Assembly: GCA_032718475.1 (NCBI GenBank)
Contig: JAUCBJ010005791.1
Coordinates: 1 to 52,768, forward strand
DNA from: Nemertoderma westbladi
Lineage: Eukaryota; Animalia; Xenacoelomorpha
Direction of reading: 5' to 3'
Length of the DNA stretch: 52,768 nt
The notes under the pieces were generated by a model that searched no databases, was not told where the DNA came from, and worked only from the letters and a program-made list of their open reading frames with translations. The position numbers and the translations under genes were made by a program. Shown here in pieces: positions 4,266 to 52,419 of the stretch. Every line of letters begins with the position of its first letter. The stretch's first letter is position 1.

Positions 4266-4370
4266 CAAATATATTAGTATTAGGGCTATGTATCCATAAC
4301 AATTATATTAGTATTAGGAGTATTATCCTTAATTATTATATTAGTATTAGGAGTATTTACCCACAATATT
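4241..4370 (+). repeat. ~34-bp tandem repeat (TAGTATTAGGGCTATTTATCCATAACAAATATAT-like), 4 degenerate copies
   Basis: Direct reading; overlaps the stop of ORF 3024. Confidence 0.8.
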
Positions 4371-5033
4371 TATTACTACAGTCCCTATCTCATTCTAGAT
4401 ACCGTTTCTCAAACTGGGTACCTTTTCTCTTACCTCACTCTTACTAACTCAAACCTGTCTGAATTACTCAAACCCAACTCAAACTCGCGTAACCACCCAC
4501 TGTGCACTGTGTAGCATTCATACAACAAGCTGTCTGTGTTTAATGGCCCACTCGCTTCTGTTATACTCTGCCTACGGGTTTGATGGTCTCCTGCTGTTAT
4601 AACATTCCCTAAACTTGATTTGTTTGTGTGTAATTAACTCCAGTAGACAGTGAGAATTAAATTGCAGACTCAGTGACTCAATTTATTTTTAAATTTCAGA
4701 ATAAAAAAAATATATGCTAAATTATTAAACTGAAGATTTATTAATTTTTTATTACATTTATTAAGTATGTATGACTCATAACATATTAACGTTATTTTAC
4801 ATTAAAATATAACCAACCAATTTTATAAATTTATTTTAATGTCGCGTATATTTCGCTAATGTTGTTTAACTTTAATGTTTTACTAATGTTTAATTCTCTA
4901 TTACATCGTCAACACAATTATTCGCAATACATGCTAAATATATAGAGCTTTAGTTGGATCTGTGCTTGTAAACACTTTTGTGCTCGTATATTGTAATTTA
5001 TTGTTCATATAATGCAATATAACTCGGCTATTT

Positions 5034-5367
5034 AGTCTGTGCCTCAGTGAGGTATAGTCTGTGCCTCAGTGCCTCAGTGAGGCATAGTCTGTGCCTCAGT
5101 GAGGCATAGTCTATACCTCAGTGCCTCAGTGAGGCATAGTCTGTGTCTTAGTGCCTCAATGAGGAATAGTCTGTGCCTCAGTGAGGCATAGTCTGTGCCT
5201 CAGTGCCTCAGTGAGGCATAGTCTGTGCCTCAGTGACGCATAGTCTGTGCCTCAGTGAGGCATAGTCTGTGCCTCAGTGAGGCATAGTCTGTGCCTCAGT
5301 GAGGCATAGTCTGTGCCTCAGTGAGGCATAGTCTGTGCCTCAGTGTCTCAGTGAGGCATAGTCTATG
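5034..5367 (-). repeat. 22-bp minisatellite (right arm, inverted)
   Basis: (CCTCAGTGAGGCATAGTCTGTG)n, the reverse complement of 971..1366. Confidence 0.95.
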
Positions 5368-30300: not shown

Positions 30301-33300
30301 GACCGGGGGGCATATTCTAGGGGGGGCTGATTTCCTTGTGACACCGGTAATCTGGTAATACCGTACTGCAGTACTGTAATAACGTTGACGTTTGACGTTA
30401 GGTAAGGTAAGGTAGTAAGTAGTCTGGTACCGGTAGTTGAGTTCAGGCGTTACCGGTCAGCCGGTAGCCACGGAATCTGAGAGACAATGGATATATATGA
30501 AAACAGTGTCCATGGGGGAAGACAAAAACGACTCGTAATGTCTGAACCCCGAAAACCACAAAAACTTCCCAACGGGAAAAAAACACGAGGCAGAGTTAAA
30601 ATAAAAATGGAATTTATTGACAACAAACTCCGTCGCTACACAACTTTTAGTAAACGGAAAACGGGAATAATGAAGAAAGCTTACGAGCTTTCAACTCTAA
30701 CTGGAACCCAAGTGATGCTACTGGTTGCCTCGGAAACCGGACACGTTTACACGTTCGCGACACGGAAACTCCAACCGATGATAACAAGCGACGCGGGTAA
30801 GGCCTTGATACAAACTTGTCTGAACACCCCGGACCCGGAATCGGTGGACCGTCCGCTGTGCGAGGAGACGGAGTTCAGCTTCGATGGGTGTCTACGGGAG
30901 GCGCTGGAGGAGGGCAATACACGGACCCCAGTGGAGGAGAGGGATTGGCGGACCCCAATGGAGGAGAGGGTCTCCATAATAAAGAACGTGCCGGGCGCCG
31001 CCCCTGGTAGCATCGCGATGCAGATCCCCCCGGGTCTGCTGGCTAATCCTCCACACGAACAGCGCAAGGAAACTCCGGGCCCACAACTCACCTCTACCCC
31101 ACAACTCGTTCCGGTCCATCAACTCGCCCACGCCCCCCAACTCGCCCACGCCACACAACTCACCCACGCCCCCCAACTCGCCCACGCCACACAACTCGCC
31201 CACGCCCCCCAACTCGCCCACGCCCCCCAACTCACCCCGGCCCCCCAGCTAGCCCCCTCTATGCTGCAACCCGCCCCCAACCAACTCCCGGTGTTCACGA
31301 TATCCCAACCCCCCGTCCAGAAATCCCTTAAGTTGTCTCCGGACTGTAAACCACCCGCGTTGGTCGGGAACCCGTCCAGGGCACCGTCGGGCGCTGTGCC
31401 CTCCTCCCTCAAACGCCCCGCCACACCCGAGCCGTCGACCAACCGCAGACAGCCCCCGCCCCTAAAGGGCCCCTTGTCGATCCCTCTATCCCAACCCAGC
31501 GGGATGCATCCCGGGGGAATCTCTAACCCCCCTAACAAACAATCCCTCTTCCCAACAGTAATCATATCAGCCCCAACCGATATCGCTGTCTCTTCCAATT
31601 CTTCTATCAACGGTACTTTACTAGATGATTCTCCCTTTACCGACACCAGTTCATCCCCCCTGATGGACGGCACATTGCATCCGACTGCGCCACCCACCAC
31701 TGTGGCTGCCATCCAACCCACACCCAATCCCTCAATCCCATTCAGTCTCTACCAATCCCTCATCTACTCCCCACAGACTACCCCAGGATCCAGTGGGAGT
31801 GACTCGCTTATATTCGGTTACACTTTAACGCCTCACAGCGGGGCGCCGGGGAACCGCTTCTTCTCGGGTATGAGTGATGCTACTGGGGTTCTGAACACAC
31901 CCACAGTACTGCCTCGAACTAACTAACCTAACACCAACACACTACATAGTCGCACCCAATCCACAGATACACACCAATCTAACTAGACATTACTACCAAG
32001 CTATTATAAAAAATATGCATTTGATATTCGATTCAGATCAGTTGGTAAATTATGCAAACATGTGCTGAACATTGATTGTTTAACCCAAGTTTTCATTACA
32101 TTGAGTTCAACTTTAACTAGATTCACATATATGTGGCAACTTAGGCAAAACTTACTGCGATTATCTCATACACTCAGTTGTGGTTAACCAACTTCTGACT
32201 GTCCTATTGCCAATTTACTTGGTATCATTAAAACCCATCCATAGAGAAGTGATCGATTTAGAGGTACCTTAGTTACTGGATAACAGTTAATATTTCTCGA
32301 GATGTCGCACAAAAGCTGTTGCTGGCTACCTCATTAGAAGAGTCAATGTCTTTACCCCCCGAATAGATCATTGCTGTTGGAATGGGCTTATATTCTTGAT
32401 TCGGTTGGATGTTGAGAGTATTATTTTTTAGCGAAATACCTACATGGTATTGATTGACGAGTTGTGCTGACTGACACTTTTTATACAATATCTCGAGTAA
32501 TAATATCTTCCTTAGTTTGCAAGGATTTTCAATAGGAGTATCAGGAAGTTGGTCTCTAAGTTGGCACATTTTGCATTGGAAAGGTTGATTTTCGAAAATT
32601 GTTCTTACAATAGGAATATTACGTATGTTGTTTTTACTGCACTGCGTAACCCTAACTAAGTGTAAGTATAAGTGGTTCCGAATTTAAAAGTGACAACTAC
32701 CCCTTGTCTTTCATTGGGTTGTTTTAACTTTATAACACCGATAGTACTGATTTATTGAAATGTCGCAATCATTTGTGTTTCTGATTCACCAGTTATAATA
32801 TAACTCAACTGACCAAACTGTGGTTAAAAATATTTTAATTTTGCGAGCAGAGCATGTTACATAATCAGATCCAAAAGTGCACGCAGAAAAATCTGCAAAT
32901 TTATAAAAGTTTCGAGATTGCGCGGTTGATATTATATTACAGAACGCCCCACTCCTACTTGCTGCATTGACCTCCCTTTGTATCATAGCCATACACCATT
33001 GCTACAAATTCATACCACAACCCACTGTCCATGTCCTGGAATATAGTGTCTTTATTCAGGTACCACCACCCCCCCCCCCCTCCCCCTTCCCAAAATTGTT
33101 CTAAAAATTTTAATGATGGGGGCTACTTGACTTGAATAAAGACAATATTTTTCCAGACATGTTGTGAGTCAGATCATATTAACAGTAAGATACTTGAATC
33201 TCGATATTTTATGGGTATAATTATTAATTGCCACTTTTATATTTCACTTAATTAAGTAATTATAATGTAATTTGGGACTTAATTTGTTATTATCTATTAA

Positions 33301-36300
33301 ATTTGTACTTTTGTTTGTATTTGTAGAACTGTTAACTTTTGTATATCGTTACTCCACCCTGAATACTTTACCTTAAATATTTAATTATAAAAAAAACTAT
33401 TAAATAAATTGTTAAATATTAATCACAACATGTTTATATGTTTTAACATTCATGGATGGAAATATTTGGATCCCCATATACGACATAGGAACTAATTTAA
33501 CCTGTGTCTCATTCGTTGAACCAAAAAAATGTAATAAATAAAAAATTAGTAATAATGTTGTTTTTAAAAAGTGAAAAAGTATTTTGGCTGTTTTTTACGA
33601 TGTCACTTTTGCAATGTATAACCTAATGTCTCTAAAAGTGGTTCCATCTATAAAGGAATTGTAGTAGAACATAATACTGAAAATTTCGCAGGAACATGAG
33701 TAAAAACTGAGATAATGGCATTTAAAGTATTCAAACCTTCCCGCCAATTTTTCTTAAATGGAAGGAAATTTCCAACTATATTCAAAAAAAATAAGGAAGA
33801 ATACTTCTTCACTAAAATTTTCGATATGGAGGTTGTCATTGTCGGTGATTGCATTTCCGATGTCAGTTTTAACGTTTGATGAATTCCAGAATGTCTGACA
33901 GTCAGTCTGTCTGTTTATCAAACAATCTGTCTGTCTAAATTTAGGAAAGCACACGACCTCGCTGAAATTTAAGATAAAGGGGTTTTCCTGGTCAATGATT
34001 CCATTTCTGTTGTCAGCTTTGAATTATGATCGCTTATTTGTGTTGGTCTGTATACCTGTCGATCTGTTCGTCATAATATAACAGACAGACGGATAGTCCA
34101 TCTAGAATCCGTTAACTGTTAAAACAGACATAATAAACGGAATCATTTACCAGGAAAACAAACCCCTTTAACAAAATTTTCAGCTGTGTATTGCATTCAT
34201 GATTTTTGACAGACAGACACATACAGGCCAAAATACAGATAGACAGAGCGACAGACAGAAAGACATACAGGCTGATAGACATTCTAGAATCCATGAGACA
34301 TTAGAAATGAAGTCAGTAAACAGGAAAAATCCTATAGGGAAAATAGGTTACCTATGTTAAGAGATACTTAAGAGGTACTCGTACATAGAGACACTTAACT
34401 AAAAAGGTCGTGGAACCATAGAGCCTATTCTGATCTGGCACTTGAAGGTTAATCGAAGAGTTATCAATAAAGAAAGACAGACACTGGCTATTATCTTTGT
34501 AGACTTCTTTAAAACCTTCGACTCAGTCTCCCGACAACGTATGTTCAGCATACTGGCAGCATAAGGGATTCCAGAGGAAATTGTTGCAGGTATGAGATCA
34601 CCGTACGATGGTTCCACCTCGTTTGTGTCTGCTGCTGATGGTGTCACAGATACATTCGAAGTTTTATGGGGATAACTTCAGGGTGAGACATTTTTTTTCA
34701 CCATTCGCATTCCCCTACTGACACAAGAAGTAAAGGAAATCCAGCAAACTGCCTTACTGATGTCTGATCTTAAGGGCAAAGCTCTAGGGACGGCTTGCTT
34801 GAGCACGTGAATGACTTCTGCTACTTGGGATCATGGACCCGAAGGAAGGCAGGGGCAGCGTTAAATAGGCTTTCCAGGAAATGGAAGTCCCATAGAATAA
34901 AACGGAACCTTACGGTTCGATTATTTATGGCTGTAGTAGCACCAGTACTCTTATGGGAGTCCATACTGGGCTCTAACTGCAGAGGGTACCAAATCTCTTG
35001 ATGGCACTTTCACAAGAATGCTGCGCCGGGTTCATTGAGTCAAGTACAATGAACACATCTCCAATCAGACTCAATACAACATTGGAGGTGTTCCATTAGT
35101 CTCTCCTAGCTTGAGACTTGAACGAAACTGCCTCTGCCTTGGAGGACATTGCTTTCGCCGTGAGGACCAGCCAGTGCATAATCTTGTGTTTTGGTGGCCC
35201 GATGGAGTGAATAAGCGTGCTGTACAGCCCATGACTTCCTTGAGACGCATCTTAAAGGCCACTGGCCTTGAAGATGCGGATGATCTAGCAAATGTCATGG
35301 GTGATAGGGAGTTGTGGTGGCGCAATTCTGTCGACAAGCCGGCACAGCATTTTTAATATATATGTAATATATATATAATGTAGCTGCAATGCAGAATGCC
35401 GATCGTAGTAGTACTTAACTATGTTAAGAATTGCTTAAATATGTTAAGAGTTGTTTGACATAGTTGTACTGTAGAAGTGCGTTTACGACATATGTTATGT
35501 TAAGATATACTTAAAGAGATACTCCTACGTAGAGTTAAGTAATATGTTAAGAATATATGTTATAGGAATATATGTTAAGAGTTGCTTGACATAGTTTTGA
35601 ATGGGATAATCTTTTAGGCTCGTTAATCCAAGAAATGCCTGTTCACCACCATGGGTGATCTTCCACAGTAAACCCTTTCACTCTGATCATAGTTTTAGAA
35701 CTGAGTTAACTACTGTACGTTAAGAGATGCTCCTACGTCGTGTTACTTAACTTTGTTAAGAGATAGGCCTACTCCTACGTAGAGTTACTTAACCATAGAT
35801 ATACTCCTACGTAGACTTACTTAACTATGTTAATGTTTAGATGAAAGCGTCTCTATTGGCTGTACAGTCGGAACTCGCGCACGGTGGAGCTGAAGATGTA
35901 AGGAGTCGTTCTGGAAAACTGTAAGTAGAACTCAAAGTGTATGAAACAAAATTATGTATGTGTAACATGATTCATCATCTATTTATGGTTGGATGATGCC
36001 TTGCTCCCGCATCGCACTTATTATTCACGATTATAATCTATTTATAGCTACGTGATTCATCCTATTTTCATAGTGCCTTGTGATTCATTATCTATTTATA
36101 GCGCCTGGTTACATGATTCAGATGGTGATATTCTACCAGGAATTTCTCAAAGAACAGAAGATGCCTCGGAATTAGATACATCAAGAAGTGAATTATACCA
36201 GGTACCTGTAGTTCAGCTTTTCGATATTTATCTGTCGCTGATCGGGTTATACAGTATCTGTAAACACTTAGAAGTCTCGTAGTTTTGACTAATTTTTGGT

Positions 36301-39300
36301 TGTTAACTGATTTCAAAACAAATCTATCGAATTCCACAAGCCAATGTTTCAGCATTATTATAGTAGAACTGTGATGTTAGGCAGGTGAGTATCATTCAAT
36401 GTACCATAATTATTATTATATAGCGCTTCATTTCTCATATACCTCGTATATCCAACATTGTATTGTACAGTATTATACTATACGGAATGTAGGCCTACCA
36501 TCCGTTTATCATGTCACTGGAAGGACCTGATCTGCCGTGCAATGTAAAAAGACCGCAAGTCACAAAAAGTCATTTCGAGTAAAACGCAAATTACTGTTTG
36601 CCTTCAGATTGTACGTTTAAAATGTCCGTAAATTACTAATTTTTTATAACCCGACGCAATTGGGGGTGGGAAATTTTCTACGTGATTATTTCTCGCTTTC
36701 CATTAATATTTTCACTTCAGGGTTATTTTTTTGTACTTACGGTGTTTTTGCATTGAACAACCTGCATGTAAATACATTCGATACAATGCAAAAACAAATG
36801 TCACAATGACAAAACAAATGTCACAAAGACAAAACACCGTAAGTCTGTCAGTTGCGGTGTTTTTACATTGTATATATTTAATGCATATTGTGTTGGGGTG
36901 GGGGGTTGCAACCCCCCACCCCCCTGAAAAAAACTTGGGAACGGGGAAATATTATGAAATCCAAAAAACTGCCCGAAATTTGTCGAAGTTTATTAAATTA
37001 CCTGTAATATTAAGCGAAAATTAAAAAAGACTAATTAAGTTTAGTTAAATGACAGAGCAGTAGTGTTTTTTGAGTGAAAAAATTTCACTCCGAGAAAATA
37101 GCCTTGAAAGTTTAAACATTGCCACACAAAACTGCCAGTATGGGGTCTGGTTGGTTAATAATGTGAGGGTGTGGCATGAAGGAAGTACATCACAGAGCTA
37201 TAATTTTCATTATGGTGGTTTTCGAGGTCCGTGATTTCATATCCAATGCCATTTTTATGTTCGGTAGAATCTACAGTAGTCGGTTTAACTATTAATTGGT
37301 AAGCCCCTCTGACTGGACTTAACATTATGACTTTTTTTACATTTTGATCTCGCTTAAAGGAATTAAGAAGGGACTCTTTTAGTTATGGTAGGGGGGGGGG
37401 GGGGGGGTGGTTGACCTCAGGTGACTAATGGAATTATTAACAACAGTTATTACAAGCTTTTTTATTATGATATTTGCACTGCTTGTTTATTTCGTGCCCC
37501 AGGGGGCACTTTCAAAATTGCCAAAAATGTTCTCGAATATTATATTTGAGTTATATAACCGTGGTCAGCATCTAAAAAGCCGCTATATGCATGCAGCCAA
37601 TAAATTAATTTTAGTTAGCCATAAAAATTTAGCACAAAAAATACTTCAGATTGGTGCCAGAAAGGGACCACAGCACGAAAACTAACATAGCCACGTAAAT
37701 GGCGTTTGTTCTATTGGATAGCCCTTTAAATTTTAGGAAAAGTCACAATATCTCGGGGTTCCCAATAAACCCGACTCAAAGATACAGATAAATTACATAA
37801 AATTAAAAAATTTAATTATAGAGAAATGGGTCAGTGCTAAAGTATTTTACTATTATCATCATCAATGAATCAACAATACGCAATAAATAATATGAGAACA
37901 AAACTGTTACCGCTACAAGGATGTGACGTTTACTTAGTATCTTGATGCAATAATTGAAATGTCTAATGTATTTACTAGACGGCAGGTTAGCTATATGATA
38001 AAACACCGCAAGTCACTTGGTGAAATTTAAATTTAGCGCCTTTTCTGCTAATAGTAAAAAACCGCAAGTCAAAAGACACATATTTCAATAAAACCGTATG
38101 TGTGTTTTCTTATTATCTATGCAATGACAAAACACCGCAAGTCTTGTGACAAACAAGTCGGCAACGCAAGTCGGTTTTTTGCATAAATTTAAGTGACTTA
38201 CGGTCTTTTTCCTTTGTAACACTCTACATATCTTGTTGACTTACGGCCTTTCTACATTGCATATCTCGAGAACTAGAGTAGATACGGTGTTCTCGATTAT
38301 ACCATTAGATAGAGCGCATTTTTTAGACCCAGAAAAAGTGAATTTTAGAAAAAAACGACTTGCGGTCTTTTTACATTGTACGGCAGTGATGGCCTTGCAG
38401 TTCTGTCGTGGTGTAATGGTTGCTTGGAATTCACATATCTCCTGAGGTCGTGGGTTCGATCCGTGCATGGGGGTCAGGGTAGGGCACGAATACTTTATTA
38501 TTTAAAGGGATCTTCTACTTTATCCTTAATAATGAGTACCGGAAGTACAGTTATTTTTACCTTTTACATCTCCTCAGTCTCACTAAGAGAGCATACAGTA
38601 GTTGTATTTATATAACCAGCACTTCTATCTCCATCTGGTACTTCCAATTGTTACTTTAGGTCCTTGATTATGGTATCGGAGGCCACTACGAACTCCATTG
38701 GGACTTCTACTTGGAAGGTGAAGGCTTGGGAGCCGCTTACGATATTTGGGGAAATCGATTAGCAACATTTCTTTTCTATGTGAGTTTAAACTATTAGCTA
38801 ACTTTATTCAATTTAGAGATAATGTTTAGCCAACAAGTAACCGTAAGTTGATTTTTGCTGTTCTGAGATAGTCGATAAAAAATAAAAATGGGGTTTTGAT
38901 TTGCTTTTGGGTTTGCGTTGATTTGCTTAGCATTGCTATATACCCGTACCAAGTAATAAAGTTAATGGGTTTTTATTATTCGTTTATTCAATAGTTCCAA
39001 AATGAATGGTTGAGAACATAGGGATTCTGGTGTAGATGGAAGTTTTGACGCTCAAAACCGTGACAACCATAGGCTATAACCTGTTCTTTTAACTACAGTA
39101 CTGTAGGACCCCTTTCGTTCTGGGAAAGGGTTGCGGACACCATTTGTCGTGGGTTAAGGACCCATCTACTCGGCTACAGGGGTATAAGGCCTGACCATGC
39201 AGATGGTAATCTATCCATGGCTGCCTGGTCAGGAGTAGAGTAGAGTGATATTATCTACAATTTGAGTGCACTCCACTGCGACCTGCCAGCATTTTTCAGC

Positions 39301-42300
39301 AGATGAGCTGAGCTATGACCCACCAATAATGATGTGTCATGGTGTCATGTGTTTCAGAGTAGGTATGGGTGGGTGATGGGCCCAATATCTGACTCAATCC
39401 ACCCTGATGAATGGCAAACAAGGGTGCGGTATTTTCCCTCAACCACCACTATGGATTACATTAGCAATGCGGAGATCCGGCTAGCTGTTGGCAAGCTGCA
39501 TTTTTCGAGGTGTTTTGTTATTATACATTTATGATAGGAAGGGATCTAGGGGTCTTAACCTCGAATGATAAGTTTATTTTACCGAAAATAACTTATCTTT
39601 TATTGGTGCAATTGTAGGACTAATCCCATCACATGCGTACTTTTTAACCGGGTAGTGTACAAATTTAAGAATCGCGTATTTTTTCTTGAAATTAATATCT
39701 CATATCTCTCCAAACCACGTACGCGTTTCGACCTTACTGAGTCTCATCAGCGTGGAGTCGGATTCGAACCTGGGACCTCGAGGTAGAAGCCGAGACTACA
39801 ACCACTAGGCCACAGGTTCTTGAGATATGGAGTATTAATTTCAAAGCCAGCTGCCATTTTTATTAGCCCCTGATTTTTTATTATTGATAGTAACAATGTG
39901 TTGGCAAGCTGCATTTTTCGAGGTGTTTTGTTATTATACATTTATCTAGGTTATTTCCTGACCTGCTGCCTGTCTTACCCCGAAATGGAGAGAGAGCGGC
40001 CAACAATAATGTGAGACCCCGTTCCTAAAGACCTTTCTGGCCCAAACCCTGAGTCACTTGAGAGGCACGATTGCGAGGGGGGGGGGGGATTCTAGAATTG
40101 GAGGCTACTCTCATGTTCCACCCCGACCAACCAAGCCTCCATTGGCGAATCTGAGGCAAAGTCACGAGACTATTCTCAGTTAACACCCTAAGACTCGGGT
40201 CCCCAATGCGACAAGGCGAAAGCTTACTGCCCTGACAAATAATTAATTACAGAATCCTGTATTACAGTACAGTAATAAGACATGATGAATTAAGGCACAT
40301 TCGTGTGGGTCCTTTGTGCAGTACGAGACTAAATACGTACCAAATTTGGTTTAATTTTCATCAATGGTTGACTGACCTATTTTGGTTTTTATCAAAAGTC
40401 TGAATCTACTGGTACCGACAGACTGATTTTTTACCAAACATCAGAATCTTTGTAAACCTTTGACGGACTACGTATATACGTAGTTACGTACCAAGTTTGT
40501 CTTAATTTCATCAAGTAATGACTGAGTTATTAATATAGCGATCAAAATGAATTTACGACGACGACCACATCATACTGTACAACTAGTTAATGGTACCCCT
40601 ATGCTAAGGCATCGCTCACCCTATATGATTGGACATAGACTGTTGTCAACGACGTTTGACTGTTGTCGTCAGGCGTTTGACGGTTGTCACCGACGCTGTA
40701 TTCCTGATTAACATATCAGGTTTTTGTAAAGCATACTGTGACAATGTACATATTACTTAATTACATAGATGAATGATGTGAAGGCGGGAGGAGCAACCGT
40801 ATTTCCGAAGTTAGGAATCCGAAGTATTCCGAGGAAAGGGTCAGCGATACTCTGGTACAACTTACTACGTAACGGAGAAAGAGATTACCAGACAATGCAT
40901 GGTGGATGTCCTGTATTACTGGGGACTAAATGGGGTTAGTAACAGAGAAAGAGATTACCAGACAATGCATGGTGGATGTCCTGTATTACTGGGGACTAAA
41001 TGGGGTTAGTAACAGAGAAAGAGATTACCAGACAATGCATGGTGGATGTCCTGTATTACTGGGGACTAAATGGGGTTAGTAACATAGAAAGAGATTACCA
41101 GACAATGCATGGTGGATGTCCTGTATTACTGGGGACTAAATGGGGTTAGTAACAGAGAAAGAGATTACCAGACAATGCATGGTGGATGTCCTGTATTACT
41201 GGGGACTAAATGGGGTTAGTAACAGAGAAAGAGATTACCAGACAATGCATGGTGGATGTCCTGTATTACTGGGGACTAAATGGGGTTAGTAACAGAGAAA
41301 GAGATTACCAGACAATGCATGGTGGATGTCCTGTATTACTGGGGACTAAATGGGGTTAGTAACATAGAAAGAGATTACCAGACAATGCATGGTGGATGTC
41401 CTGTATTACTGGGGACTAAATGGGGTTAGTAACAGAGAAAGAGATTACCAGACAATGCATGGTGGATGTCCTGTATTACTGGGGACTAAATGGGGTTAGT
41501 AACAGAGAAAGAGATTACCAGACAATGCATGGTGGATGTCCTGTATTACTGGGGACTAAATGGGGTTAGTAACAGAGAAAGAGATTACCAGACAATGCAT
41601 GGTGGATGTCCTGTATTACTGGGGACTAAATGGGGTTAGTAACATAGAAAGAGATTACCAGACAATGCATGGTGGATGTCCTGTATTACTGGGGACTAAA
41701 TGGGGTTAGTAACATAGAAAGAGATTACCAGACAATGCATGGTGGATGTCCTGTATTACTGGGGACTAAATGGGGTTAGTAACATAGAAAGAGATTACCA
41801 GACAATGCATGGTGGATGTCCTGTATTACTGGGGACTAAATGGGGTTAGTAACAGAGAAAGAGATTACCAGACAATGCATGGTGGATGTCCTGTATTACT
41901 GGGGACTAAATGGGGTTAGTAACATAGAAAGAGATTACCAGACAATGCATGGTGGATGTCCTGTATTACTGGGGACTAAATGGGGTTAGTAACATAGAAA
42001 GAGATTACCAGACAATGCATGGTGGATGTCCTGTATTACTGGGGACTAAATGGGGTTAGTAACATAGAAAGAGATTACCAGACAATGCATGGTGGATGTC
42101 CTGTATTACTGGGGACTAAATGGGGTTAGTAACATAGAAAGAGATTACCAGACAATGCATGGTGGATGTCCTGTATTACTGGGGACTAAATGGGGTTAGT
42201 AACATAGAAAGAGATTACCAGACAATGCATGGTGGATGTCCTGTATTACTGGGGACTAAATGGGGTTAGTAACATAGAAAGAGATTACCAGACAATGCAT

Positions 42301-42757
42301 GGTGGATGTCCTGTATTACTGGGGACTAAATGGGGTTAGTAACAGAGAAAGAGATTACCAGACAATGCATGGTGGATGTCCTGTATTACTGGGGACTAAA
42401 TGGGGTTAGTAACAGAGAAAGAGATTACCAGACAATGCATGGTGGATGTCCTGTATTACTGGGGACTAAATGGGGTTAGTAACATAGAAAGAGATTACCA
42501 GACAATGCATGGTGGATGTCCTGTATTACTGGAGTCTAAATGGGGTTTAGTAATGGAGAAAGAGATTTCGAGTTTGTAATGTATGATTAGTCTAATAGTA
42601 TTAAATATAATAATATTATTTAAAATACTATATAATAGCATTTCATTTGATATTTACAGTTATCAACAAGTGGTTTAGAACATATGGACAGGAATTACAC
42701 CGCCCATGCGGTACAAAAAACGATACGATGACACACAGATTGGACACTGTGAGATAG
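12209..42757 (+). CDS. P4HA: Collagen prolyl 4-hydroxylase alpha subunit, 12 coding exons, about 558 aa
   Basis: Exons 12209-12345, 17056-17145, 17261-17430, 17584-17751, 18054-18275, 23049-23194, 23556-23735, 35841-35920, 36102-36201, 38660-38779, 40769-40934 and 42660-42757. All are GT-AG and phase-consistent, totalling 1677 nt. Motifs: signal peptide, HPIRLFKLVRRL, DPNNERA, YRLGCQG, CRY...PRLILKPLKEE, YGIGGHYELHWD (HxD), GNRLATFLFY, GGATVFP, HGGCPVLLGTKWVINKW, RPC. Confidence 0.93.
12739..13524 (+). CDS. gag: Gypsy Gag
   Basis: KLPVFWTAEPEVWFAQVEAQF, LGDRTPSGLLRHM and CYFHNRFGENARKC are typical of this Gypsy Gag class. First ATG at 12739. Confidence 0.9.
   Translation: MDQNDIQLLAQAIKNLTTPVTDPSPAPVISSVSVKLPVFWTAEPEVWFAQVEAQFDTRTPPITVDKTKFNYIVAALDNATAKEVRSIILSPPIDDRYETLKTALIKTFGKSQAAKDNELLSLSGLGDRTPSGLLRHMRSLNGNPETIFRALFLAQMPIEVRRILAGSKTSELDQLAIEADNIIEASGNNFGHPGINSTHSAPPPSKQRTKARNELCYFHNRFGENARKCNHDGCILRHLVPNAATPIRPKFLTSGNSQAGR
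13500..13545 (+). other. Predicted -1 ribosomal frameshift signal at the gag-pol junction
   Basis: G_GGA_AAC heptamer in the gag frame at 13500-13506, followed by stem AGGCCGGCCG/CGGTCGGCCT. pol is in the -1 frame. Confidence 0.75.
13500..16688 (+). pseudogene. pol: Gypsy Pol (protease, RT, RNase H, integrase) with one in-frame nonsense codon
   Basis: LVDCGAD protease, YLDD RT, TDASD RNase H, HHCC motif and D-D-E integrase. TAA at 14616-14618 in NRG*CVFG, where Lys is expected; both halves are in the same frame. Confidence 0.92.
17056..17145 (+). CDS. P4HA: P4HA exon 2
   Basis: TTTAG acceptor, 90 nt, phase 2-2, donor CG|GTAAGT. Confidence 0.75.
17261..17430 (+). CDS. P4HA: P4HA exon 3 (DYWNHPIRLFKLVRRL)
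   Basis: CTAAC branch point, TTTTTTTCAG acceptor, donor G|GTAAGT. Confidence 0.9.
17584..17751 (+). CDS. P4HA: P4HA exon 4 (LPGSKEVEKAAFVIMRINEVYDI)
   Basis: AG/GT boundaries; matches the P4HA N-terminal domain pattern. Confidence 0.9.
18054..18275 (+). CDS. P4HA: P4HA exon 5 (TPR-like substrate-binding region, QWLKEAL...YDYLQYS)
   Basis: Uses the second of two duplicated acceptors; donor G|GTAAGA. Confidence 0.9.
18936..22970 (-). mobile_element. Near full-length RTE-type LINE (APE endonuclease + RT), frameshifted, (TAG)n tail
   Basis: IATMNART, CYSPT, DLNA, LDYIL and SDH (APE); QNGFR, DFKKAFDS, GVLQGDTLAP and FADD (RT). The ORF is broken into pieces 21977-21756, 21522-20683 and 20505-19078. 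Tail ACT repeats at 18936-18950. The 5' end is approximate. Confidence 0.93.
22254..22701 (-). mobile_element. 5'-truncated second RTE-family LINE inserted in the 5' region of the first LINE
   Basis: RLRFAGHCFR...LVLWQP C-terminal motif; 10-bp TSD CTCTAATGCA at 22244-22253 and 22702-22711; same family as 34402..35412. Confidence 0.88.
23049..23194 (+). CDS. P4HA: P4HA exon 6 (DPNNERAAIN...YRLGCQG)
   Basis: TTCAG acceptor and donor GTG|GTTAGT. Confidence 0.88.
23556..23735 (+). CDS. P4HA: P4HA exon 7 (CRYNNKNSNPRLILKPLKEE...YHDLLNDREIE)
   Basis: 180 nt, phase 0-0, donor AAA|GTAAGT. Confidence 0.93.
23830..25381. mobile_element. piggyBac-like MITE (TTAA TSD) with internal ~163-bp tandem repeats
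   Basis: TTAA|CCCTATTAG...TAATAAGG|TTAA; subterminal GGGGTCATATTGACCCC near both ends; about 5 diverged units anchored by TTGGTGCTAGCACC at about 24356, 24519, 24681, 24845 and 25007. Confidence 0.8.
26321..26545 (-). mobile_element. tRNA-derived SINE with Nin-like central domain
   Basis: Minus strand reads GGCTCATTTGGTTGAGCG...GGTTC, then CCACTCAGTCTTTCACCCACTGGGGTCGATAAAATGAGTACCAG (Nin-like, recognised from memory), then tail GCAGCTATCGAAAGAGGAGCCTTCGGGTCGCC. Confidence 0.7.
29108..30347. mobile_element. Non-autonomous TIR element flanked by TA, immediately upstream of SRF
   Basis: TA|CCGGTGTAACAGGAAAATATGCCCCCC ... GGGGGGCTGATTTCCTTGTGACACCGG|TA; subterminal GGAAAAAATGCCCCCC repeats; 5 internal ~70-bp repeats at about 29323-29611. 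Confidence 0.75.
30487..31926 (+). CDS. SRF: Serum response factor (type I MADS-box), intronless, nested in P4HA intron 7
   Basis: 479-aa ORF containing KKTRGRVKIKMEFIDNKLRRYTTFSKRKTGIMKKAYELSTLTGTQVMLLVASETGHVYTFATRKLQPMITS...GKALIQTCLN (MADS + SAM), with a P/S/T-rich C-terminus. Confidence 0.97.
   Translation: MDIYENSVHGGRQKRLVMSEPRKPQKLPNGKKTRGRVKIKMEFIDNKLRRYTTFSKRKTGIMKKAYELSTLTGTQVMLLVASETGHVYTFATRKLQPMITSDAGKALIQTCLNTPDPESVDRPLCEETEFSFDGCLREALEEGNTRTPVEERDWRTPMEERVSIIKNVPGAAPGSIAMQIPPGLLANPPHEQRKETPGPQLTSTPQLVPVHQLAHAPQLAHATQLTHAPQLAHATQLAHAPQLAHAPQLTPAPQLAPSMLQPAPNQLPVFTISQPPVQKSLKLSPDCKPPALVGNPSRAPSGAVPSSLKRPATPEPSTNRRQPPPLKGPLSIPLSQPSGMHPGGISNPPNKQSLFPTVIISAPTDIAVSSNSSINGTLLDDSPFTDTSSSPLMDGTLHPTAPPTTVAAIQPTPNPSIPFSLYQSLIYSPQTTPGSSGSDSLIFGYTLTPHSGAPGNRFFSGMSDATGVLNTPTVLPRTN
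34402..35412 (+). mobile_element. Degenerate 5'-truncated RTE-family LINE
   Basis: Broken RT motifs (IFVDFFKTFDS, YGIP, FCYLGSW, GHCFRREDQP); tail GTAGTAGT; ACTTAACTA on both sides as a probable TSD; homologous to 22254..22701. Confidence 0.85.
35413..35833 (+). repeat. Degenerate tandem repeat (TACTCCTACGTAGAGTTACTTAACTATGTTAAG-like) abutting the exon 8 acceptor
   Basis: Direct reading; a similar unit at about 34350-34400 lies on the other side of the LINE. Confidence 0.7.
35841..35920 (+). CDS. P4HA: P4HA exon 8 (MKASLLAVQ...RSRSGK)
   Basis: TTTAG acceptor and CT|GTAAGT donor; occupies the position of the LARATV...RVSKS segment. Confidence 0.8.
36102..36201 (+). CDS. P4HA: P4HA exon 9 (AWLHD...SELYQ)
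   Basis: 100 nt, phase 2-0, donor CAG|GTACCT. Confidence 0.9.
36532..38386. mobile_element. Non-autonomous DNA transposon with ~30-bp TIRs and 4-bp TSD (Sola-like)
   Basis: TGAT|CTGCCGTGCAATGTAAAAAGACCGCAAGTC ... GACTTGCGGTCTTTTTACATTGTACGGCAG|TGAT, with repeated ACCGCAAGTC motifs inside. Confidence 0.8.
38409..38478 (+). mobile_element. tRNA-derived SINE-like head
   Basis: TGGTGTAATGG and GGTTCGATCC; same family as 5437..5505. Confidence 0.6.
38660..38779 (+). CDS. P4HA: P4HA exon 10 (YGIGGHYELHWD...GNRLATFLFY)
   Basis: Fe-binding HxD motif; donor TAT|GTGAGT. Confidence 0.96.
39709..39762 (-). ncRNA. Type I hammerhead ribozyme with short palindromic stem III
   Basis: Minus strand reads UCCGA-CU-CCACG CUGAUGA GACU-CAGUAA-GGUC GAAA CGCG UA^CGUGG-U-UUGGA. 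All core nucleotides are present. Predicted cleavage lies between 39720 and 39719. Confidence 0.88.
39760..39819 (-). promoter_or_regulatory. tRNA-derived internal Pol III promoter (pseudo-tRNA, possible Arg-TCT origin)
   Basis: A-box TGGCCTAGTGG (39812-39802), B-box GGTTCGAATCC (39770-39760) and an anticodon-like loop CT-TCT-AC. The T-stem and acceptor stem are incomplete. Confidence 0.75.
40769..40934 (+). CDS. P4HA: P4HA exon 11 (GGATVFP...HGGCPVLLGTKW)
   Basis: Carries the distal Fe-binding His and the 2-oxoglutarate-binding Lys; donor G|GTTAGT. Confidence 0.96.
40869..42567 (+). repeat. 24 x 70-bp tandem array made of the 3' part of P4HA exon 11 plus its splice donor
   Basis: Units start every 70 bp from 40871 to 42481. 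Variants: AACAGAG (11 copies), AACATAG (12 copies) and the exonic AACGGAG. The last unit is diverged. Confidence 0.97.
42660..42757 (+). CDS. P4HA: P4HA exon 12 (VINKWFRTYGQELHRPC...*)
   Basis: TTTACAG acceptor, TAG at 42755-42757, AATAAA at about 43100. Confidence 0.93.
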
Positions 42758-43737: not shown

Positions 43738-46700
43738 GTTGCTATTCTTACTAACTTGATTCTTTAAGTATGTGTGTGCCCCAGTCACTGTTTGCTATTC
43801 TTACTAACTTGATTCTTTAAGTATGTGTGTGCCCCAGTCACTGTTTGCTATTCTTACTAACTTGATTCTTTAAGTATGTGTGTGCCCCAGTCACTGTTTG
43901 CTATTCTTACTAACTTGATTCTTTAAGTATGTGTGTGCCCCAGTCACTGTTTGCTATTCTTACTAACTTGATTCTTTAAGTATGTGTGTGCCCCAGTCAC
44001 TGTTTGCTATTCTTACTAACTTGATTCTTTAAGTATGTGTGTGCCCCAATCACTGTTTGCTATTCTTACTAACTTGATTCTTTAAGTATGTGTGTGCCCC
44101 AGTCACTGTTTGCTATTCTTACTAACTTGATTCTTTAAGTATGTGTGTGCCCCAGTCACTGTTTGCTATTCTTACTAACTTGATTCTTTAAGTATGTGTG
44201 TGCCCCAGTCACTGTTTGCTATTCTTACTAACGTGATTCTTTAAGTATGTGTGTGCCCCAGTCACTGTTTGCTATTCTTACTAACTTGATTCTTTAAGTA
44301 TGTGTGTGCCCCAGTCCCCAGTCACTGTTTGCTATTCTTACTAACTTGATTCTTTAAGTATGTGTGTGCCCCAGTCACTGTTGCTATTCTTACTAACTTG
44401 ATTCTTTAAGTATGTGTGTGCCCCATCACTGTTTGCTATTCTTACTAACTTGATTCTTTAAGTATGTGTGTGCCCCAGTCACTGTTTGCTATTCTTACTA
44501 ACTTGATTCTTTAAGTATGTGTGTGCCCCAGTCACTGTTTGCTATTCTTACTAACTTGATTCTTTAAGTATGTGTGTGCCCCAGTCACTGTTTGCTATTC
44601 TTACTAACTTGATTCTTTAAGTATGTGTGTGCCCCAGTCACTGTTTGCTATTCTTACTAACTTGATTCTTTAAGTATGTGTGTGCCCCAGTCACTGTTTG
44701 CTATTCTTACTAACTTGATTCTTTAAGTATGTGTGTGCCCCAGTCACTGTTTGCTATTCTTACTAACTTGATTCTTTAAGTATGTGTGTGCTCCAATCAC
44801 TGTTTGCTATTCTTACTAACTTAATTCTTTAAGTATGTGTGTGTCCCAGTCACTGTTGCTATTCTTACTAACTTGATTCTTTAAGTATGTGTGTGTCCCA
44901 GTCACTGTTTGCTATTCTTACTAACTTGATTCTTTAAGTATGTGTGTGCCCCAATCACTGTTTGCTATTCTTACTAACTTGATTCTTTAAGTATGTGTGT
45001 GCCCCAGTCACTGTTTGCTATTCTTACTAACTTGATTCTTTAAGTATGTGTGTGCCCCAGTCACTGTTTGCTATTCTTACTAACTTGATTCTTTAAGTAT
45101 GTGTGTGCCCCAGTCACTCTTTGCTATTCTTACTAACTTGATTCTTTAAGTATGTGTGTGCTCCAATCACTGTTTGCTATTCTTACTAACTTGATTCTTT
45201 AAGTATGTGTGTGCCCCAATCACTGTTTGCTATTCTTACTAACTTGATTCTTTAAGTATGTGTGTGCCCCAGTCACTGTTTGCTATTCTTACTAACTTGA
45301 TTCTTTAAGTATGTGTGTGCCCCAGTCACTGTTTGCTATTCTTACTAACTTGATTCTTTAAGTATGTGTGTGCCCCAGTCACTGTTTGCTATTCTTACTA
45401 ACTTGATTCTTTAAGTATGTGTGTGCCCCAGTCACTGTTTGCTATTCTTACTAACTTGATTCTTTAAGTATGTGTGTGCTCCAGTCACTGTTTGCTATTC
45501 TTACTAACTTGATTCTTTAAGTATGTGTGTGCCCCAGTCACTGTTTGCTATTCTTACTAACTTGATTCTTTAAGTATGTGTGTGCCCCAGTCACTGTTTG
45601 CTATTCTTACTAACTTGATTCTTTAAGTATGTGTGTGCCCCAGTCACTGTTTGCTATTCTTACTAACTTGATTCTTTAAGTATGTGTGTGCCCCAGTCAC
45701 TGTTTGCTATTCTTACTAACTTGATTCTTTAAGTATGTGTGTGCCCCAGTCACTGTTTGCTATTCTTACTAACTTGATTCTTTAAGTATGTGTGTGCCCC
45801 AGTCACTGTTTGCTATTCTTACTAACTTGATTCTTTAAGTATGTGTGTGCCCCAGTCACTGTTTGCTATTCTTACTAACTTGATTCTTTAAGTATGTGTG
45901 TGCCCCAGTCACTGTTTGCTATTCTTACTAACTTGATTCTTTAAGTATGTGTGTGCCCCAGTCACTGTTTGCTATTCTTACTAACTTGATTCTTTAAGTA
46001 TGTGTGTGCCCCAGTCACTGTTTGCTATTCTTACTAACTTGATTCTTTAAGTATGTGTGTGCCCCAGTCACTGTTTGCTATTCTTACTAACTTGATTCTT
46101 TAAGTATGTGTGTGCCCCAGTCACTGTTTGCTATTCTTACTAACTTGATTCTTTAAGTATGTGTGTGCCCCAGTCACTGTTTGCTATTCTTACTAACTTG
46201 ATTCTTTAAGTATGTGTGTGCCCCAGTCACTGTTTGCTATTCTTACTAACTTGATTCTTTAAGTATGTGTGTGCCCCAGTCACTGTTTGCTATTCTTACT
46301 AACTTGATTCTTTAAGTATGTGTGTGCCCCAGTCACTGTTTGCTATTCTTACTAACTTGATTCTTTAAGTATGTGTGTGCCCCAGTCACTGTTTGCTATT
46401 CTTACTAACTTGATTCTTTAAGTATGTGTGTGCCCCAGTCACTGTTTGCTATTCTTACTAACTTGATTCTTTAAGTATGTGTGTGCCCCAGTCACTGTTT
46501 GCTATTCTTACTAACTTGATTCTTTAAGTATGTGTGTGCCCCAGTCACTGTTTGCTATTCTTACTAACTTGATTCTTTAAGTATGTGTGTGCCCCAGTCA
46601 CTGTTTGCTATTCTTACTAACTTGATTCTTTAAGTATGTGTGTGCCCCAGTCACTGTTTGCTATTCTTACTAACTTGATTCTTTAAGTATGTGTGTGCCC

Positions 46701-49210
46701 CAGTCACTGTTTGCTATTCTTACTAACTTGATTCTTTAAGTATGTGTGTGCCCCAGTCACTGTTTGCTATTCTTACTAACTTGATTCTTTAAGTATGTGT
46801 GTGCCCCAGTCACTGTTTGCTATTCTTACTAACTTGATTCTTTAAGTATGTGTGTGCCCCAGTCACTGTTTGCTATTCTTACTAACTTGATTCTTTAAGT
46901 ATGTGTGTGCCCCAGTCACTGTTTGCTATTCTTACTAACTTGATTCTTTAAGTATGTGTGTGCCCCAGTCACTGTTTGCTATTCTTACTAACTTGATTCT
47001 TTAAGTATGTGTGTGCCCCAGTCACTGTTTGCTATTCTTACTAACTTGATTCTTTAAGTATGTGTGTGCCCCAGTCACTGTTTGCTATTCTTACTAACTT
47101 GATTCTTTAAGTATGTGTGTGCCCCAGTCACTGTTTGCTATTCTTACTAACTTGATTCTTTAAGTATGTGTGTGCCCCAGTCACTGTTTGCTATTCTTAC
47201 TAACTTGATTCTTTAAGTATGTGTGTGCCCCAGTCACTGTTTGCTATTCTTACTAACTTGATTCTTTAAGTATGTGTGTGCCCCAGTCACTGTTTGCTAT
47301 TCTTACTAACTTGATTCTTTAAGTATGTGTGTGCCCCAGTCACTGTTTGCTATTCTTACTAACTTGATTCTTTAAGTATGTGTGTGCCCCAGTCACTGTT
47401 TGCTATTCTTACTAACTTGATTCTTTAAGTATGTGTGTGCCCCAGTCACTGTTTGCTATTCTTACTAACTTGATTCTTTAAGTATGTGTGTGCCCCAGTC
47501 ACTGTTTGCTATTCTTACTAACTTGATTCTTTAAGTATGTGTGTGCCCCAGTCACTGTTTGCTATTCTTACTAACTTGATTCTTTAAGTATGTGTGTGCC
47601 CCAGTCACTGTTTGCTATTCTTACTAACTTGATTCTTTAAGTATGTGTGTGCCCCAGTCACTGTTTGCTATTCTTACTAACTTGATTCTTTAAGTATGTG
47701 TGTGCCCCAGTCACTGTTTGCTATTCTTACTAACTTGATTCTTTAAGTATGTGTGTGCCCCAGTCACTGTTTGCTATTCTTACTAACTTGATTCTTTAAG
47801 TATGTGTGTGCCCCAGTCACTGTTTGCTATTCTTACTAACTTGATTCTTTAAGTATGTGTGTGCCCCAGTCACTGTTTGCTATTCTTACTAACTTGATTC
47901 TTTAAGTATGTGTGTGCCCCAGTCACTGTTTGCTATTCTTACTAACTTGATTCTTTAAGTATGTGTGTGCCCCAGTCACTGTTTGCTATTCTTACTAACT
48001 TGATTCTTTAAGTATGTGTGTGCCCCAGTCACTGTTTGCTATTCTTACTAACTTGATTCTTTAAGTATGTGTGTGCCCCAGTCACTGTTTGCTATTCTTA
48101 CTAACTTGATTCTTTAAGTATGTGTGTGCCCCAGTCACTGTTTGCTATTCTTACTAACTTGATTCTTTAAGTATGTGTGTGCCCCAGTCACTGTTTGCTA
48201 TTCTTACTAACTTGATTCTTTAAGTATGTGTGTGCCCCAGTCACTGTTTGCTATTCTTACTAACTTGATTCTTTAAGTATGTGTGTGCCCCAGTCACTGT
48301 TTGCTATTCTTACTAACTTGATTCTTTAAGTATGTGTGTGCCCCAGTCACTGTTTGCTATTCTTACTAACTTGATTCTTTAAGTATGTGTGTGCCCCAGT
48401 CACTGTTGCTATTCTTACTAACTTGATTCTTTAAGTATGTGTGTGCCCCAGTCACTGTTTGCTATTCTTACTAACTTGATTCTTTAAGTATGTGTGTGCC
48501 CCAGTCACTGTTTGCTATTCTTACTAACTTGATTCTTTAAGTATGTGTGTGCCCCAGTCACTGTTTGCTATTCTTACTAACTTGATTCTTTATAAGTATG
48601 TGTGTGCCCCAGTCACTGTTTGCTATTCTTACTAACTTGATTCTTTAAGTATGTGTGTGCCCCAGTCACTGTTTGCTATTCTTACTAACTTGATTCTTTA
48701 AGTATGTGTGTGCCCCAGTCACTGTTTGCTATTCTTACTAACTTGATTCTTTAAGTATGTGTGTGCCCCAGTCACTGTTTGCTATTCTTACTAACTTGAT
48801 TCTTTAAGTATGTGTGTGCCCCAGTCACTGTTTGCTATTCTTACTAACTTGATTCTTTAAGTATGTGTGTGCCCCAGTCACTGTTTGCTATTCTTACTAA
48901 CTTGATTCTTTAAGTATGTGTGTGCCCCAGTCACTGTTTGCTATTCTTACTAACTTGATTCTTTAAGTATGTGTGTGCCCCAGTCACTGTTTGCTATTCT
49001 TACTAACTTGATTCTTTAAGTATGTGTGTGCCCCAGTCACTGTTTGCTATTCTTACTAACTTGATTCTTTATAAGTATGTGTGTGCCCCAGTCACTGTTT
49101 GCTATTCTTACTAACTTGATTCTTTAAGTATGTGTGTGCCCCAGTCACTGTTTGCTATTCTTACTAACTTGTTTCTTTAAGTATATGTGTGCCCCAGTCA
49201 CTGTTGCTAT
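43738..49210. repeat. Homogeneous 53-bp satellite, about 103 copies
   Basis: Unit TGTTTGCTATTCTTACTAACTTGATTCTTTAAGTATGTGTGTGCCCCAGTCAC; variants mostly in the first ~1.8 kb and near the right end. Confidence 0.98.
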
Positions 49211-51414: not shown

Positions 51415-51991
51415 CTACTATTACTACTACTAGGTCGAGCGAACTCGGACAGTGGAAATGAGATCCTTCCAGGCTTCCTGATTCTCCATAGTTGTCGCAA
51501 TTTCGTTTCTCCCAAGTTCAGTATCCCTTTCAAGTTGATCTATATATGTTATGGCCGGTCGTCCACGACTACGCTTTCCGTGAGTTGGTTGCCAGAGAAT
51601 GTAGATCTGGTATGACCTCGTCTTTACTTCGCCAGCAGTGCCCACTGAATCCTAATCTGCGTTCACGGAGGGTGGTTGATACAGGCGGTATTGTACCATA
51701 AAGCTCGGCGTTTGTCATGTGTTGTCTCCAGCTGATGTTTAGGGCTGCCCTTAGTAGTCTTGTGTAGCAACCATCAATTCGTTGTTCAAGTGATTTAGTC
51801 AGTGTCCAGGTCTCACCCCCGTATAAAAATACACTTTCCACTGTCGCTCGAAAGAACTTGGTCTTCAGGTGCCTGGAGAGATCTGATTTCCAGATGGTAT
51901 CCATTTTTGATAGAGCTACCCAAGCCTTTGCTTTCCTAATTTCTATGTCCTTTTTGCTACTCTCTATCCTTGATCCAAGGTACTGGAAGTC
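51415..51991 (-). mobile_element. 5'-truncated copy of the RTE LINE at 18936
   Basis: Highly similar to about 18940-19508, with the same (TAG)n tail. Confidence 0.95.
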
Positions 51992-52419
51992 GGCTAACTA
52001 GAGGGCGAAATGTCTGAAAGTGTAAACCTTCTCCAATTTTCTGTGATTTTAATCAGTTTAAGCTAAAGCTTTGCATGTACTAGACCACATGCTGCGACTT
52101 GTTGAGGAAGTTGATCATACCGCAGTTATCTTGTTTGCAGCTAAAGGGCTAAATGAATGAAAGTGAGAACCTTCCACCGTTTACTTGATTTACTAGAAAA
52201 TTGGCAGCGTCTTTGTGGGACGCTGGTCCATCTATCTATATTTCTCAAGTTTGCCGCTAGAGGGATAACTAGTTAGTAGCTTTATTAATTCTTAATTGCA
52301 CTCATAGGCGTACGGGACGGGACGGGACGGGGGGGGGGGGGGGGGGGGGGGGGGGTGCATTGCATTTCAAGATTGTCTTCTTCCTGAACAACTTAACAAC
52401 TTGAAGTGGATGCTATTTT

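What the first reader, a model, noticed from the sequence alone, without database searches (positions are those of the whole stretch)
39486..39945. Pol III tRNA head fused to a hammerhead ribozyme in a terminally redundant 413-bp unit (retrozyme or Sm-alpha-like element)
Seen: on the minus strand a tRNA-like A-box/B-box runs directly into a complete type I hammerhead. It has stem I CCACG/CGUGG with lower stem UCCGA/UUGGA, core CUGAUGA, stem II GACU/GGUC, GAAA, a palindromic ACGCGU stem III and a GUA cleavage triplet. The module lies between identical 47-bp direct repeats 413 bp apart. Known: schistosome Sm-alpha SINEs combine a tRNA-derived head with a hammerhead. Metazoan non-LTR retrozymes are short repeats with type I hammerheads that yield circular RNAs, and hammerheads with a palindromic stem III can cleave as dimers. 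Inference: this is a self-cleaving, Pol III-driven, non-autonomous retroelement. The 47-bp redundancy could reflect about 1.1 rounds of reverse transcription of a ~413-nt circle. It is antisense to P4HA, so it should not cut the host pre-mRNA.
Basis: partly seen in the sequence, partly recalled or inferred. Interest (0 to 1): 0.9.

Follow-up and report, generated by a model that had tools for sequence, protein, structure and literature searches.

The report
Hammerhead retrozyme with tRNA-type promoter
This is one stray, slightly-more-than-one-unit copy of a very abundant 411-base non-coding repeat of an animal that carries tRNA-type promoter boxes just upstream of a predicted self-cutting hammerhead RNA and likely spreads through small RNA circles, a design already known from blood flukes and other animals.

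Summary
The minus strand has A and B boxes, a complete type I hammerhead and identical 47-bp repeats 413 bp apart, in a P4HA intron, antisense. Public runs show a very high-copy family (summed depth about 30,000 times the single-copy flank in two studies). One contig closes on itself as a 411-nt cycle. So the 47 bp is part of the unit, not a target-site duplication. The family's letters give a better ribozyme than this copy. Helix III is one pair plus a palindromic CGCG loop, so cleavage is predicted to need two hammerheads; this copy has one and is a likely dead end. Best reading: a non-LTR retrozyme of the schistosome Sm-alpha design, likely Pol III-transcribed from tandem loci and likely mobilised by a Penelope-like element. 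Cleavage, Pol III use and RNA circles are not shown; the cyclic contig could be tandem DNA. The class is published, and this scan reported similar elements in other genomes (e1-9924037, e1-8665316). Open lead: a 1.8-kb high-depth contig carries the hammerhead segment at one end, like a Penelope terminal repeat.

The parts
39486..39945 (-). Whole dispersed copy, 460 bp = 1.11 units of a 413-bp period (family 411 bp)
39899..39945 (-). 47-bp redundant segment, RNA-sense 5' copy
   Evidence: carried by the family at about unit depth
39486..39532 (-). 47-bp redundant segment, RNA-sense 3' copy
   Evidence: X4 contig runs 39898 to 39486 to 39556 without a break
39822..39844 (-). 5' arm of the 23-bp inverted repeat that extends hammerhead helix I (clamp)
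   Evidence: pair probabilities 0.7-1.0 in circular fold
39760..39819 (-). tRNA-derived segment (about positions 1-62 of a tRNA), cloverleaf lost, folds as a rod; predicted Pol III start near 39819 (inferred from A-box position)
39802..39812 (-). Pol III A box
   Evidence: unchanged in the X4 family contig
39760..39770 (-). Pol III B box; its last 3 bases overlap lower helix I of the hammerhead
39709..39762 (-). Type I hammerhead, canonical metazoan geometry, helix III of one pair plus palindromic CGCG loop
   Evidence: definition read in PMC4209133
39719..39720 (-). Predicted cleavage site after GUA
   Evidence: sequence and hammerhead numbering (established knowledge); not assayed
39686..39708 (-). 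3' arm of the 23-bp clamp
39585..39588 (-). Only run of 4 or more T on the ribozyme strand of the unit; possible weak Pol III terminator about 232 nt after the predicted start, inside a hairpin
39408..39481 (.). Left part of a second high-copy repeat family into which the copy is inserted
   Evidence: depth; X4 record 17 joins it to 40018-40216 through 116 other letters
40018..40216 (.). Right part of the second repeat family
38660..38779 (+). P4HA exon upstream of the host intron
40769..40936 (+). P4HA exon downstream of the host intron (3' end approximate; it runs into a 70-bp array)

Best explanation
The 460 bp is one dispersed 1.11-unit copy of a high-copy, head-to-tail 411-bp repeat with tRNA-type A and B boxes upstream of a type I hammerhead, and it is likely a non-LTR retrozyme of the schistosome Sm-alpha design that spreads through a circular RNA. 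Shown: the anatomy, the high copy level, the cyclic unit and the antisense intronic position. Inferred cycle: (1) at tandem loci Pol III starts near 39819 and reads through more than one unit; (2) two successive hammerheads pair through their ACGCGU palindromes and both cut after GUA, freeing a 411-nt monomer with 5'-OH and cyclic-phosphate ends; (3) helix I plus the 23-bp clamp hold those ends together for an RtcB-type ligase; (4) the circle has one hammerhead with no stable helix III, so it resists re-cutting; (5) a borrowed reverse transcriptase, likely from a Penelope-like element, copies the circle for a variable number of rounds. Here it went 1.11 rounds. This copy has one hammerhead and two substitutions that favour a misfold, so it is likely a dead end.
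For: Summed contig depth over the unit is about 29,000 (X1) and 31,000 (X3) times the single-copy flank, in two studies. X4 holds a 441-nt contig that runs 39527-39898 then 39486-39556, a closed 411-nt cycle with a 30-nt overlap. X1 DNA has a head-to-tail joint 39898 to 39554 with only 7 letters of the repeat between, depth 107 against 21 for single copy. Depth inside the 47-mer (292,152 at 39513) is no higher than at 8 listed interior places (270,438-667,949), so it is present once per unit. Majority letters at 39740 and 39756 (over 99% of depth in X1 and X3) turn a U.G pair of helix II into C-G and add a sixth pair to helix I, giving the canonical 6-bp/4-bp geometry of PMC4209133 (passages). 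A and B boxes and all core bases are unchanged in the X4 family contig (its 8 differing letters lie elsewhere). Folding two units as separate strands, the double hammerhead is -152.2 kcal/mol against -141.0 for two single ones with helix III closed. Unit length, 38% G+C and circular fold z -3.5, 0 of 100 shuffles as stable, fit metazoan retrozymes (PMC7229834).
Against: No run is shown to be RNA: X4 is only guessed to be RNA, and X4, X7 and X8 cover no P4HA exon, so the cycle may be collapsed tandem DNA. Repeats longer than 31 nt collapse in such contigs, so long arrays are not directly seen. Rfam score is far below the cut-off. In the two-unit fold the double hammerhead is 1.5 kcal above a non-catalytic fold and only 0.8 below two open monomers, with about 5% probability for this copy's letters. 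A T4 run lies before the second hammerhead and could stop Pol III. Scarcity of T runs is not significant against composition (P 0.50). No Penelope-type endonuclease family was hit among 12 window ORFs scanned. In a 2026 preprint 8 of 9 predicted retrozyme dimers did not cleave in vitro.
Confidence: 0.62

Rival explanations
1. Same family and promoter, but the template is a linear multimer or cut monomer, not a circle; the 47 bp is a Penelope-type 'tail' or partial tandem made during insertion.
For: Penelope-like insertions form partial tandems with a 30-40 bp extension at one end (PMC8557442 passages). Of 7 listed pieces with unrelated letters at the RNA 3' side, 6 end at 39515-39550, near the 47-mer; one diverged X3 piece starts at 39719, the predicted cut. 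Sm-alpha was described with linear multimers (PMC6765202).
Against: Those are 16 listed pieces of thousands, and a family 1-base deletion at 39513 can break alignments there. Related repeats in coral, mussel and axolotl accumulate as circles (PMC7229834).
Confidence: 0.2
2. A retrozyme whose tRNA boxes are vestigial or give only a 232-nt RNA ending at the T4 run; unit-spanning RNA comes from read-through by other polymerases.
For: The T4 run is kept in the family contig. A review states that retrozymes seem to lack promoters and rely on read-through (PMC7761336 passage). The tRNA fold is lost.
Against: Both boxes match consensus exactly while the paired tRNA stems have decayed, and both are kept in the family; the pair arises in 0 of 300 shuffles.
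Confidence: 0.1
3. A satellite spread at the DNA level (unequal crossover, reinsertion of extrachromosomal circles) whose ribozyme no longer matters.
For: Tandem DNA explains the cyclic contig equally well; the window holds other long tandem arrays.
Against: The majority letters keep every core base and better pairing than this copy; other copies are dispersed, truncated and internally deleted across structured parts (tables 5, 8), as expected of reverse transcription.
Confidence: 0.05
4. The 47-bp repeats are a long target-site duplication, or the terminal repeats of a TRIM-like LTR element.
For: They are 100% identical and the + strand copy begins TGTTGG, like an LTR (recalled feature). tRNA-bearing TRIMs exist (PMC10886601 passages).
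Against: The 47-mer is family sequence at about 1x, not 2x, interior depth, and contigs pass through it from unit end into the next unit. The tRNA-like part is not inside the repeat, as it is in Ajax.
Confidence: 0.03

Closest known systems
Sm-alpha / Sj-alpha SINE-like hammerhead repeats of Schistosoma (seen through PMC6765202 passages and section 11 part 2, and PMC2770079 passages; the 1998 original, PMC108972, was not held)
   Same: tRNA-derived Pol III promoter followed by a type I hammerhead in a tandem unit; after cutting, the promoter sits near the 3' end of the monomer, so single copies are dead ends; very high copy number.
   Different: No sequence comparison was possible. Helix III here is one pair plus a palindromic tetraloop (amphibian type); the B box overlaps helix I; a 23-bp clamp encloses the module. 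The host is an animal of undetermined group (best P4HA identity 66%).
Metazoan non-LTR retrozymes (PMC7229834, parts 1-4 of 6 read; bioRxiv 10.64898/2026.07.22.740005, parts 1-3 of 5 read)
   Same: Non-coding 150-450 bp tandem unit, under 45% G+C, one canonical type I hammerhead per unit, self-paired fold, dispersed monomers beside tandem loci.
   Different: Has internal Pol III boxes, whereas PMC7761336 says retrozymes seem to lack promoters; 411 nt is at the upper end; circles not shown here.
Newt satellite 2 and axolotl HHR_Amex1 repeats (PMC7229834)
   Same: Single-pair helix III with palindromic tetraloop; dimer-dependent cleavage expected.
   Different: Newt transcripts appear to be Pol II products (PMC6765202); no tRNA-derived part is described in what I read.
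Penelope-like element terminal repeats with minimal hammerheads (PMC4209133, PMC8557442, passages)
   Same: Type I hammerhead with palindromic loop 3; partial-tandem insertions with a short extension.
   Different: No ORF; helix II is 4 bp and helix I 6 bp plus a lower stem, the canonical form, not the minimal form with 7-8 bp helix II.

Membership tests
Metazoan non-LTR retrozyme | Type I hammerhead with intact core | tested here: met
   All core bases present; descriptor 1 real against 1 in 300 shuffles; Rfam HH9 E 0.024 but below cut-off
Metazoan non-LTR retrozyme | Short (150-450 bp), low-GC, non-coding unit | tested here: met
   413 bp, 38.5% G+C; no ORF of 70 aa within it
Metazoan non-LTR retrozyme | Head-to-tail tandem copies in the genome | tested here: met
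   Cyclic X4 contig and X1 head-to-tail joint 39898 to 39554; array lengths not seen; this copy itself is 1.11 units
Metazoan non-LTR retrozyme | No LTR, PBS or PPT | tested here: inconclusive
   The 47-mer is not an LTR by depth; PBS and PPT were not searched for
Metazoan non-LTR retrozyme | Expressed as linear and circular monomer RNA | tested here: inconclusive
   No holder on record as RNA; X4 not shown to be RNA
Metazoan non-LTR retrozyme | Self-cleavage in vitro | not testable with these tools
   Folding only
Sm-alpha design | tRNA-derived A and B boxes upstream of the hammerhead in each unit | tested here: met
Sm-alpha design | Pol III transcription | not testable with these tools
   Inferred from boxes only
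Sm-alpha family (by descent) | Sequence homology to Sm-alpha / Sj-alpha | not testable with these tools
   No Sm-alpha sequence available from a tool; no schistosome SRF among the 120 listed hits, though only the best-sharing candidates were scored
Classical tRNA SINE | tRNA region at the 5' end of the copy, simple-repeat or A tail at the 3' end, target-site duplication | tested here: not met
   tRNA region starts about 126 nt inside; the 47 bp is family sequence; only a possible 4-bp CTAG duplication, unverified
Penelope-like element terminal repeat derivative | Homology to the terminal repeat of an autonomous element in the same genome | tested here: inconclusive
   No genome held; X5 record 22 has the expected layout but its sequence could not be read
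TRIM with tRNA-like LTR (Ajax) | tRNA-like sequence inside two LTRs | tested here: not met
   Boxes lie outside the 47-bp repeats, which occur once per unit

The most novel reading that the evidence does not exclude
The family is the non-coding offspring of an autonomous Penelope-like retrotransposon whose own terminal repeat carries the tRNA-derived Pol III promoter and this hammerhead. X5 record 22 (1,831 nt, depth 401) bears 39687-39795 and a 41-nt piece ending at 39570 near one end, with about 1.65 kb of other sequence downstream in ribozyme sense. That would give a matched pair of helper and promoter-bearing retrozyme, in which the promoter start inside the clamp steers two hammerheads into the dimer fold.
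Probability: 0.2. Interest if true: 0.65.

Novelty: new member of a known kind. Interest (0 to 1): 0.36.

Why it matters
Two steps of the animal retrozyme cycle are still open in the papers read: which polymerase makes the RNA, and which element copies it back. A family with exact Pol III boxes, a dimer-type ribozyme and a candidate helper contig makes both testable in one species. It also shows the Sm-alpha design in another animal genome. It is not a new class of element, and this copy probably has no effect on P4HA.

Tried and rejected
No whole genome is held, so copies could not be counted or read. No second copy in the window. An exact 30-nt family motif found 0 matches in metagenome contigs. 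A relaxed B-box plus hammerhead pattern gave 18 metagenome loci and 1 viral locus; 0 of 19 resemble the unit by blastn at E 0.01. No RNA holder listed; X7 laid 1 contig and X8 none; these blanks are no evidence on expression. T-run depletion as a sign of Pol III read-through: 1 T run against 8 A runs, but P(T runs up to 1) = 0.50 given composition and 2 of 107 background tiles are as skewed; rejected as evidence. Promoter-inside-clamp idea: the cross-unit clamp forms at P 1.0, but also at 0.95-0.98 in controls with the upstream arm present, so the test does not discriminate; one constrained row was wrong and was redone. Parent tRNA not determined: the anticodon position reads UCU here and UCC in the family majority. 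Host group not determined: SRF and P4HA searches gave only distant animal hits or none. A joint 39474 to 40030 at about single-copy depth in X1 and X3 may be an allele without the insert, but cannot be phased to this locus. The mir-7386 match (E 1.7) is taken as chance. Literature: 9 searches listed no title that I could tie to this family, but without the species name this is weak. PMC108972 and PMC5785218 were not held. The supplement of PMC7229834 could not be read and the preprint's supplements were not seen; either may list this family or other promoter-bearing retrozymes.

Full report
Observation. On the minus strand an A box (39812-39802) and B box (39770-39760) lead straight into a type I hammerhead (39762-39709) with all core bases and a GUA triplet, predicted cut 39720/39719. 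The module lies between identical 47-bp repeats 413 bp apart. Both motifs exceed chance: 1 real hammerhead against 1 in 300 shuffles together, and 1 real box pair against 0. Rfam gives only a sub-threshold HH9 match (20.3 bits, cut-off 52, E 0.024) and lists no tRNA match; ARAGORN sees the tRNA part only at 80% threshold or lower.

Setting. The host is an animal of undetermined group. The copy lies in the intron 38780-40768 between two exons matching consecutive stretches of human P4HA2 (146-186 and 185-239), on the opposite strand, so the pre-mRNA does not contain the ribozyme. It is inserted in a second repeat family (39408-39481 and 40018-40216). CTAG stands on both sides (39481-39484, 39946-39949) and may be a short duplication; this is unverified.

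The family. No genome was held, so I used public runs: 6 of 9 listed runs hold the stretch or part of it, from 4 studies. Summed contig depth over the unit is about 29,000 and 31,000 times the single-copy flank in X1 and X3. The tool warns that this is no copy number; allowing for 30-base contig overlaps I infer roughly 1,000 to 30,000 copies. One of these runs may be the source of the window. X4 holds one 441-nt contig that runs 39527-39898 and then 39486-39556: a closed 411-nt cycle. X1 shows a head-to-tail joint with only 7 letters of the repeat between, at about 5 times single-copy depth. Depth in the 47-mer is about 1x the interior. The 47 bp is therefore part of a cyclic unit, and this copy is 1.11 units. 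X4 is not shown to be RNA: it covers no P4HA exon, nor do X7 and X8, so the cycle may be tandem DNA.

Ribozyme quality. The family majority differs from this copy at two ribozyme positions, each in over 99% of depth in X1 and X3. One turns the U.G pair of helix II into C-G, the other adds an A-U pair to helix I. That yields the 6-bp helix I, 4-bp helix II and short palindromic helix III given as canonical for animals in PMC4209133 (passages), and the single pair plus palindromic tetraloop of axolotl HHR_Amex1, which cleaves better as a dimer (PMC7229834). With two units folded as separate strands, the double hammerhead is 11 kcal/mol below two closed single ones, but 1.5 above a non-catalytic fold. 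By inspection, that misfold uses both U residues private to this copy, so the family would lose two of its pairs; I did not compute this. In the circular fold of one unit, helices I and II and the clamp form (P 0.6-1.0) and helix III does not appear in the minimum-energy structure.

Mechanism. Shown: anatomy, abundance, cyclic unit. Inferred: Pol III starts near 39819; at tandem loci it reads past one T4 run to a second hammerhead; the two pair and cut; the clamp holds the monomer's ends together; an RtcB-type ligase closes the circle, as shown in vitro for axolotl and mussel retrozymes; a borrowed reverse transcriptase makes copies of variable length. Penelope-like elements are the proposed helpers. 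None was detected in this window, whose two reverse transcriptases belong to an LTR element and a LINE. This copy has one hammerhead and cannot release a monomer, as described for single Sm-alpha copies (PMC6765202). Weak support for RNA-templated polarity comes from the 16 listed DNA pieces on the unit (6,766 more pieces of the stretch not shown): 6 of 7 with unrelated letters on the RNA 3' side end at 39515-39550, while 8 RNA 5' ends scatter from 39653 to 39913, two at the clamp base and one at 39719. An indel at 39513 may bias the first cluster. Against the model: the T-run argument failed, the promoter-in-clamp test did not discriminate, and 8 of 9 predicted dimers were inactive in a recent preprint.

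Comparison. It works like Sm-alpha and meets the sequence-level features of metazoan non-LTR retrozymes; expression and cleavage are untested. It is not a classical SINE and not a TRIM. A review says retrozymes seem to lack promoters (PMC7761336), yet Sm-alpha has one, so the promoter is a known variant and not a first. This scan noted related designs in other genomes and no look-alike by sequence; those notes are unchecked and were used as leads only.

Verdict. Real, correctly read by the first stage, and a new member of a known kind. Interest 0.36. The best open lead is X5 record 22, which has the layout of a Penelope terminal repeat followed by about 1.65 kb that I could not read.

Noticed in passing
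L002-L009, L011-L015, L018 (matches listed): 14 of the 19 pattern hits are intact tRNA genes (11 Glu-UUC, most ending in encoded CCA) followed within a few bases by a type I hammerhead with a long helix III insert (24-67 nt) and a GUC or GUA site; helix I covaries across loci. They look like bacterial or phage tRNA clusters with trailer ribozymes. Three searches listed no paper on this by title; the parallel to theta ribozymes is recalled.
   Followed up: partly
window 40869-42567: A 70-bp unit repeated 24.3 times at 99% is the 3' part of a P4HA coding exon itself, including the second catalytic His motif; the last exon follows at about 42659. It may offer many alternative exon ends or break the gene.
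   Followed up: partly
window 30481-31923 (+): An uninterrupted SRF (MADS-box) ORF of about 480 codons lies inside a P4HA intron on the same strand; possibly a retrocopy or a nested gene.
   Followed up: partly
window 39408-39481 and 40018-40216: Second high-copy repeat family hosting the insert; X4 holds a 2,356-nt contig of it at depth 37. Not identified.
   Followed up: partly
window 39474 to 40030: A joint skipping 555 bases, including the whole copy, at about single-copy depth in X1 and X3; possible insertion polymorphism.
   Followed up: partly
window 12652-16685 (+) and 19081-21546 (-): An LTR retrotransposon (RT, RNase H, integrase) and a LINE (endonuclease, RT) with long ORFs; LINE-like fragments also near 22293-22703, 34400-35350 and 51572-51997.
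   Followed up: no
window about 994-5345: Arrays of a 22-bp unit in opposite orientation at both ends enclose a 417-codon acidic ORF with a Cys/His N-terminus and no Pfam match; probably a DNA transposon.
   Followed up: no
window 43739-49210: 53-bp satellite, 103 copies at 98%.
   Followed up: no
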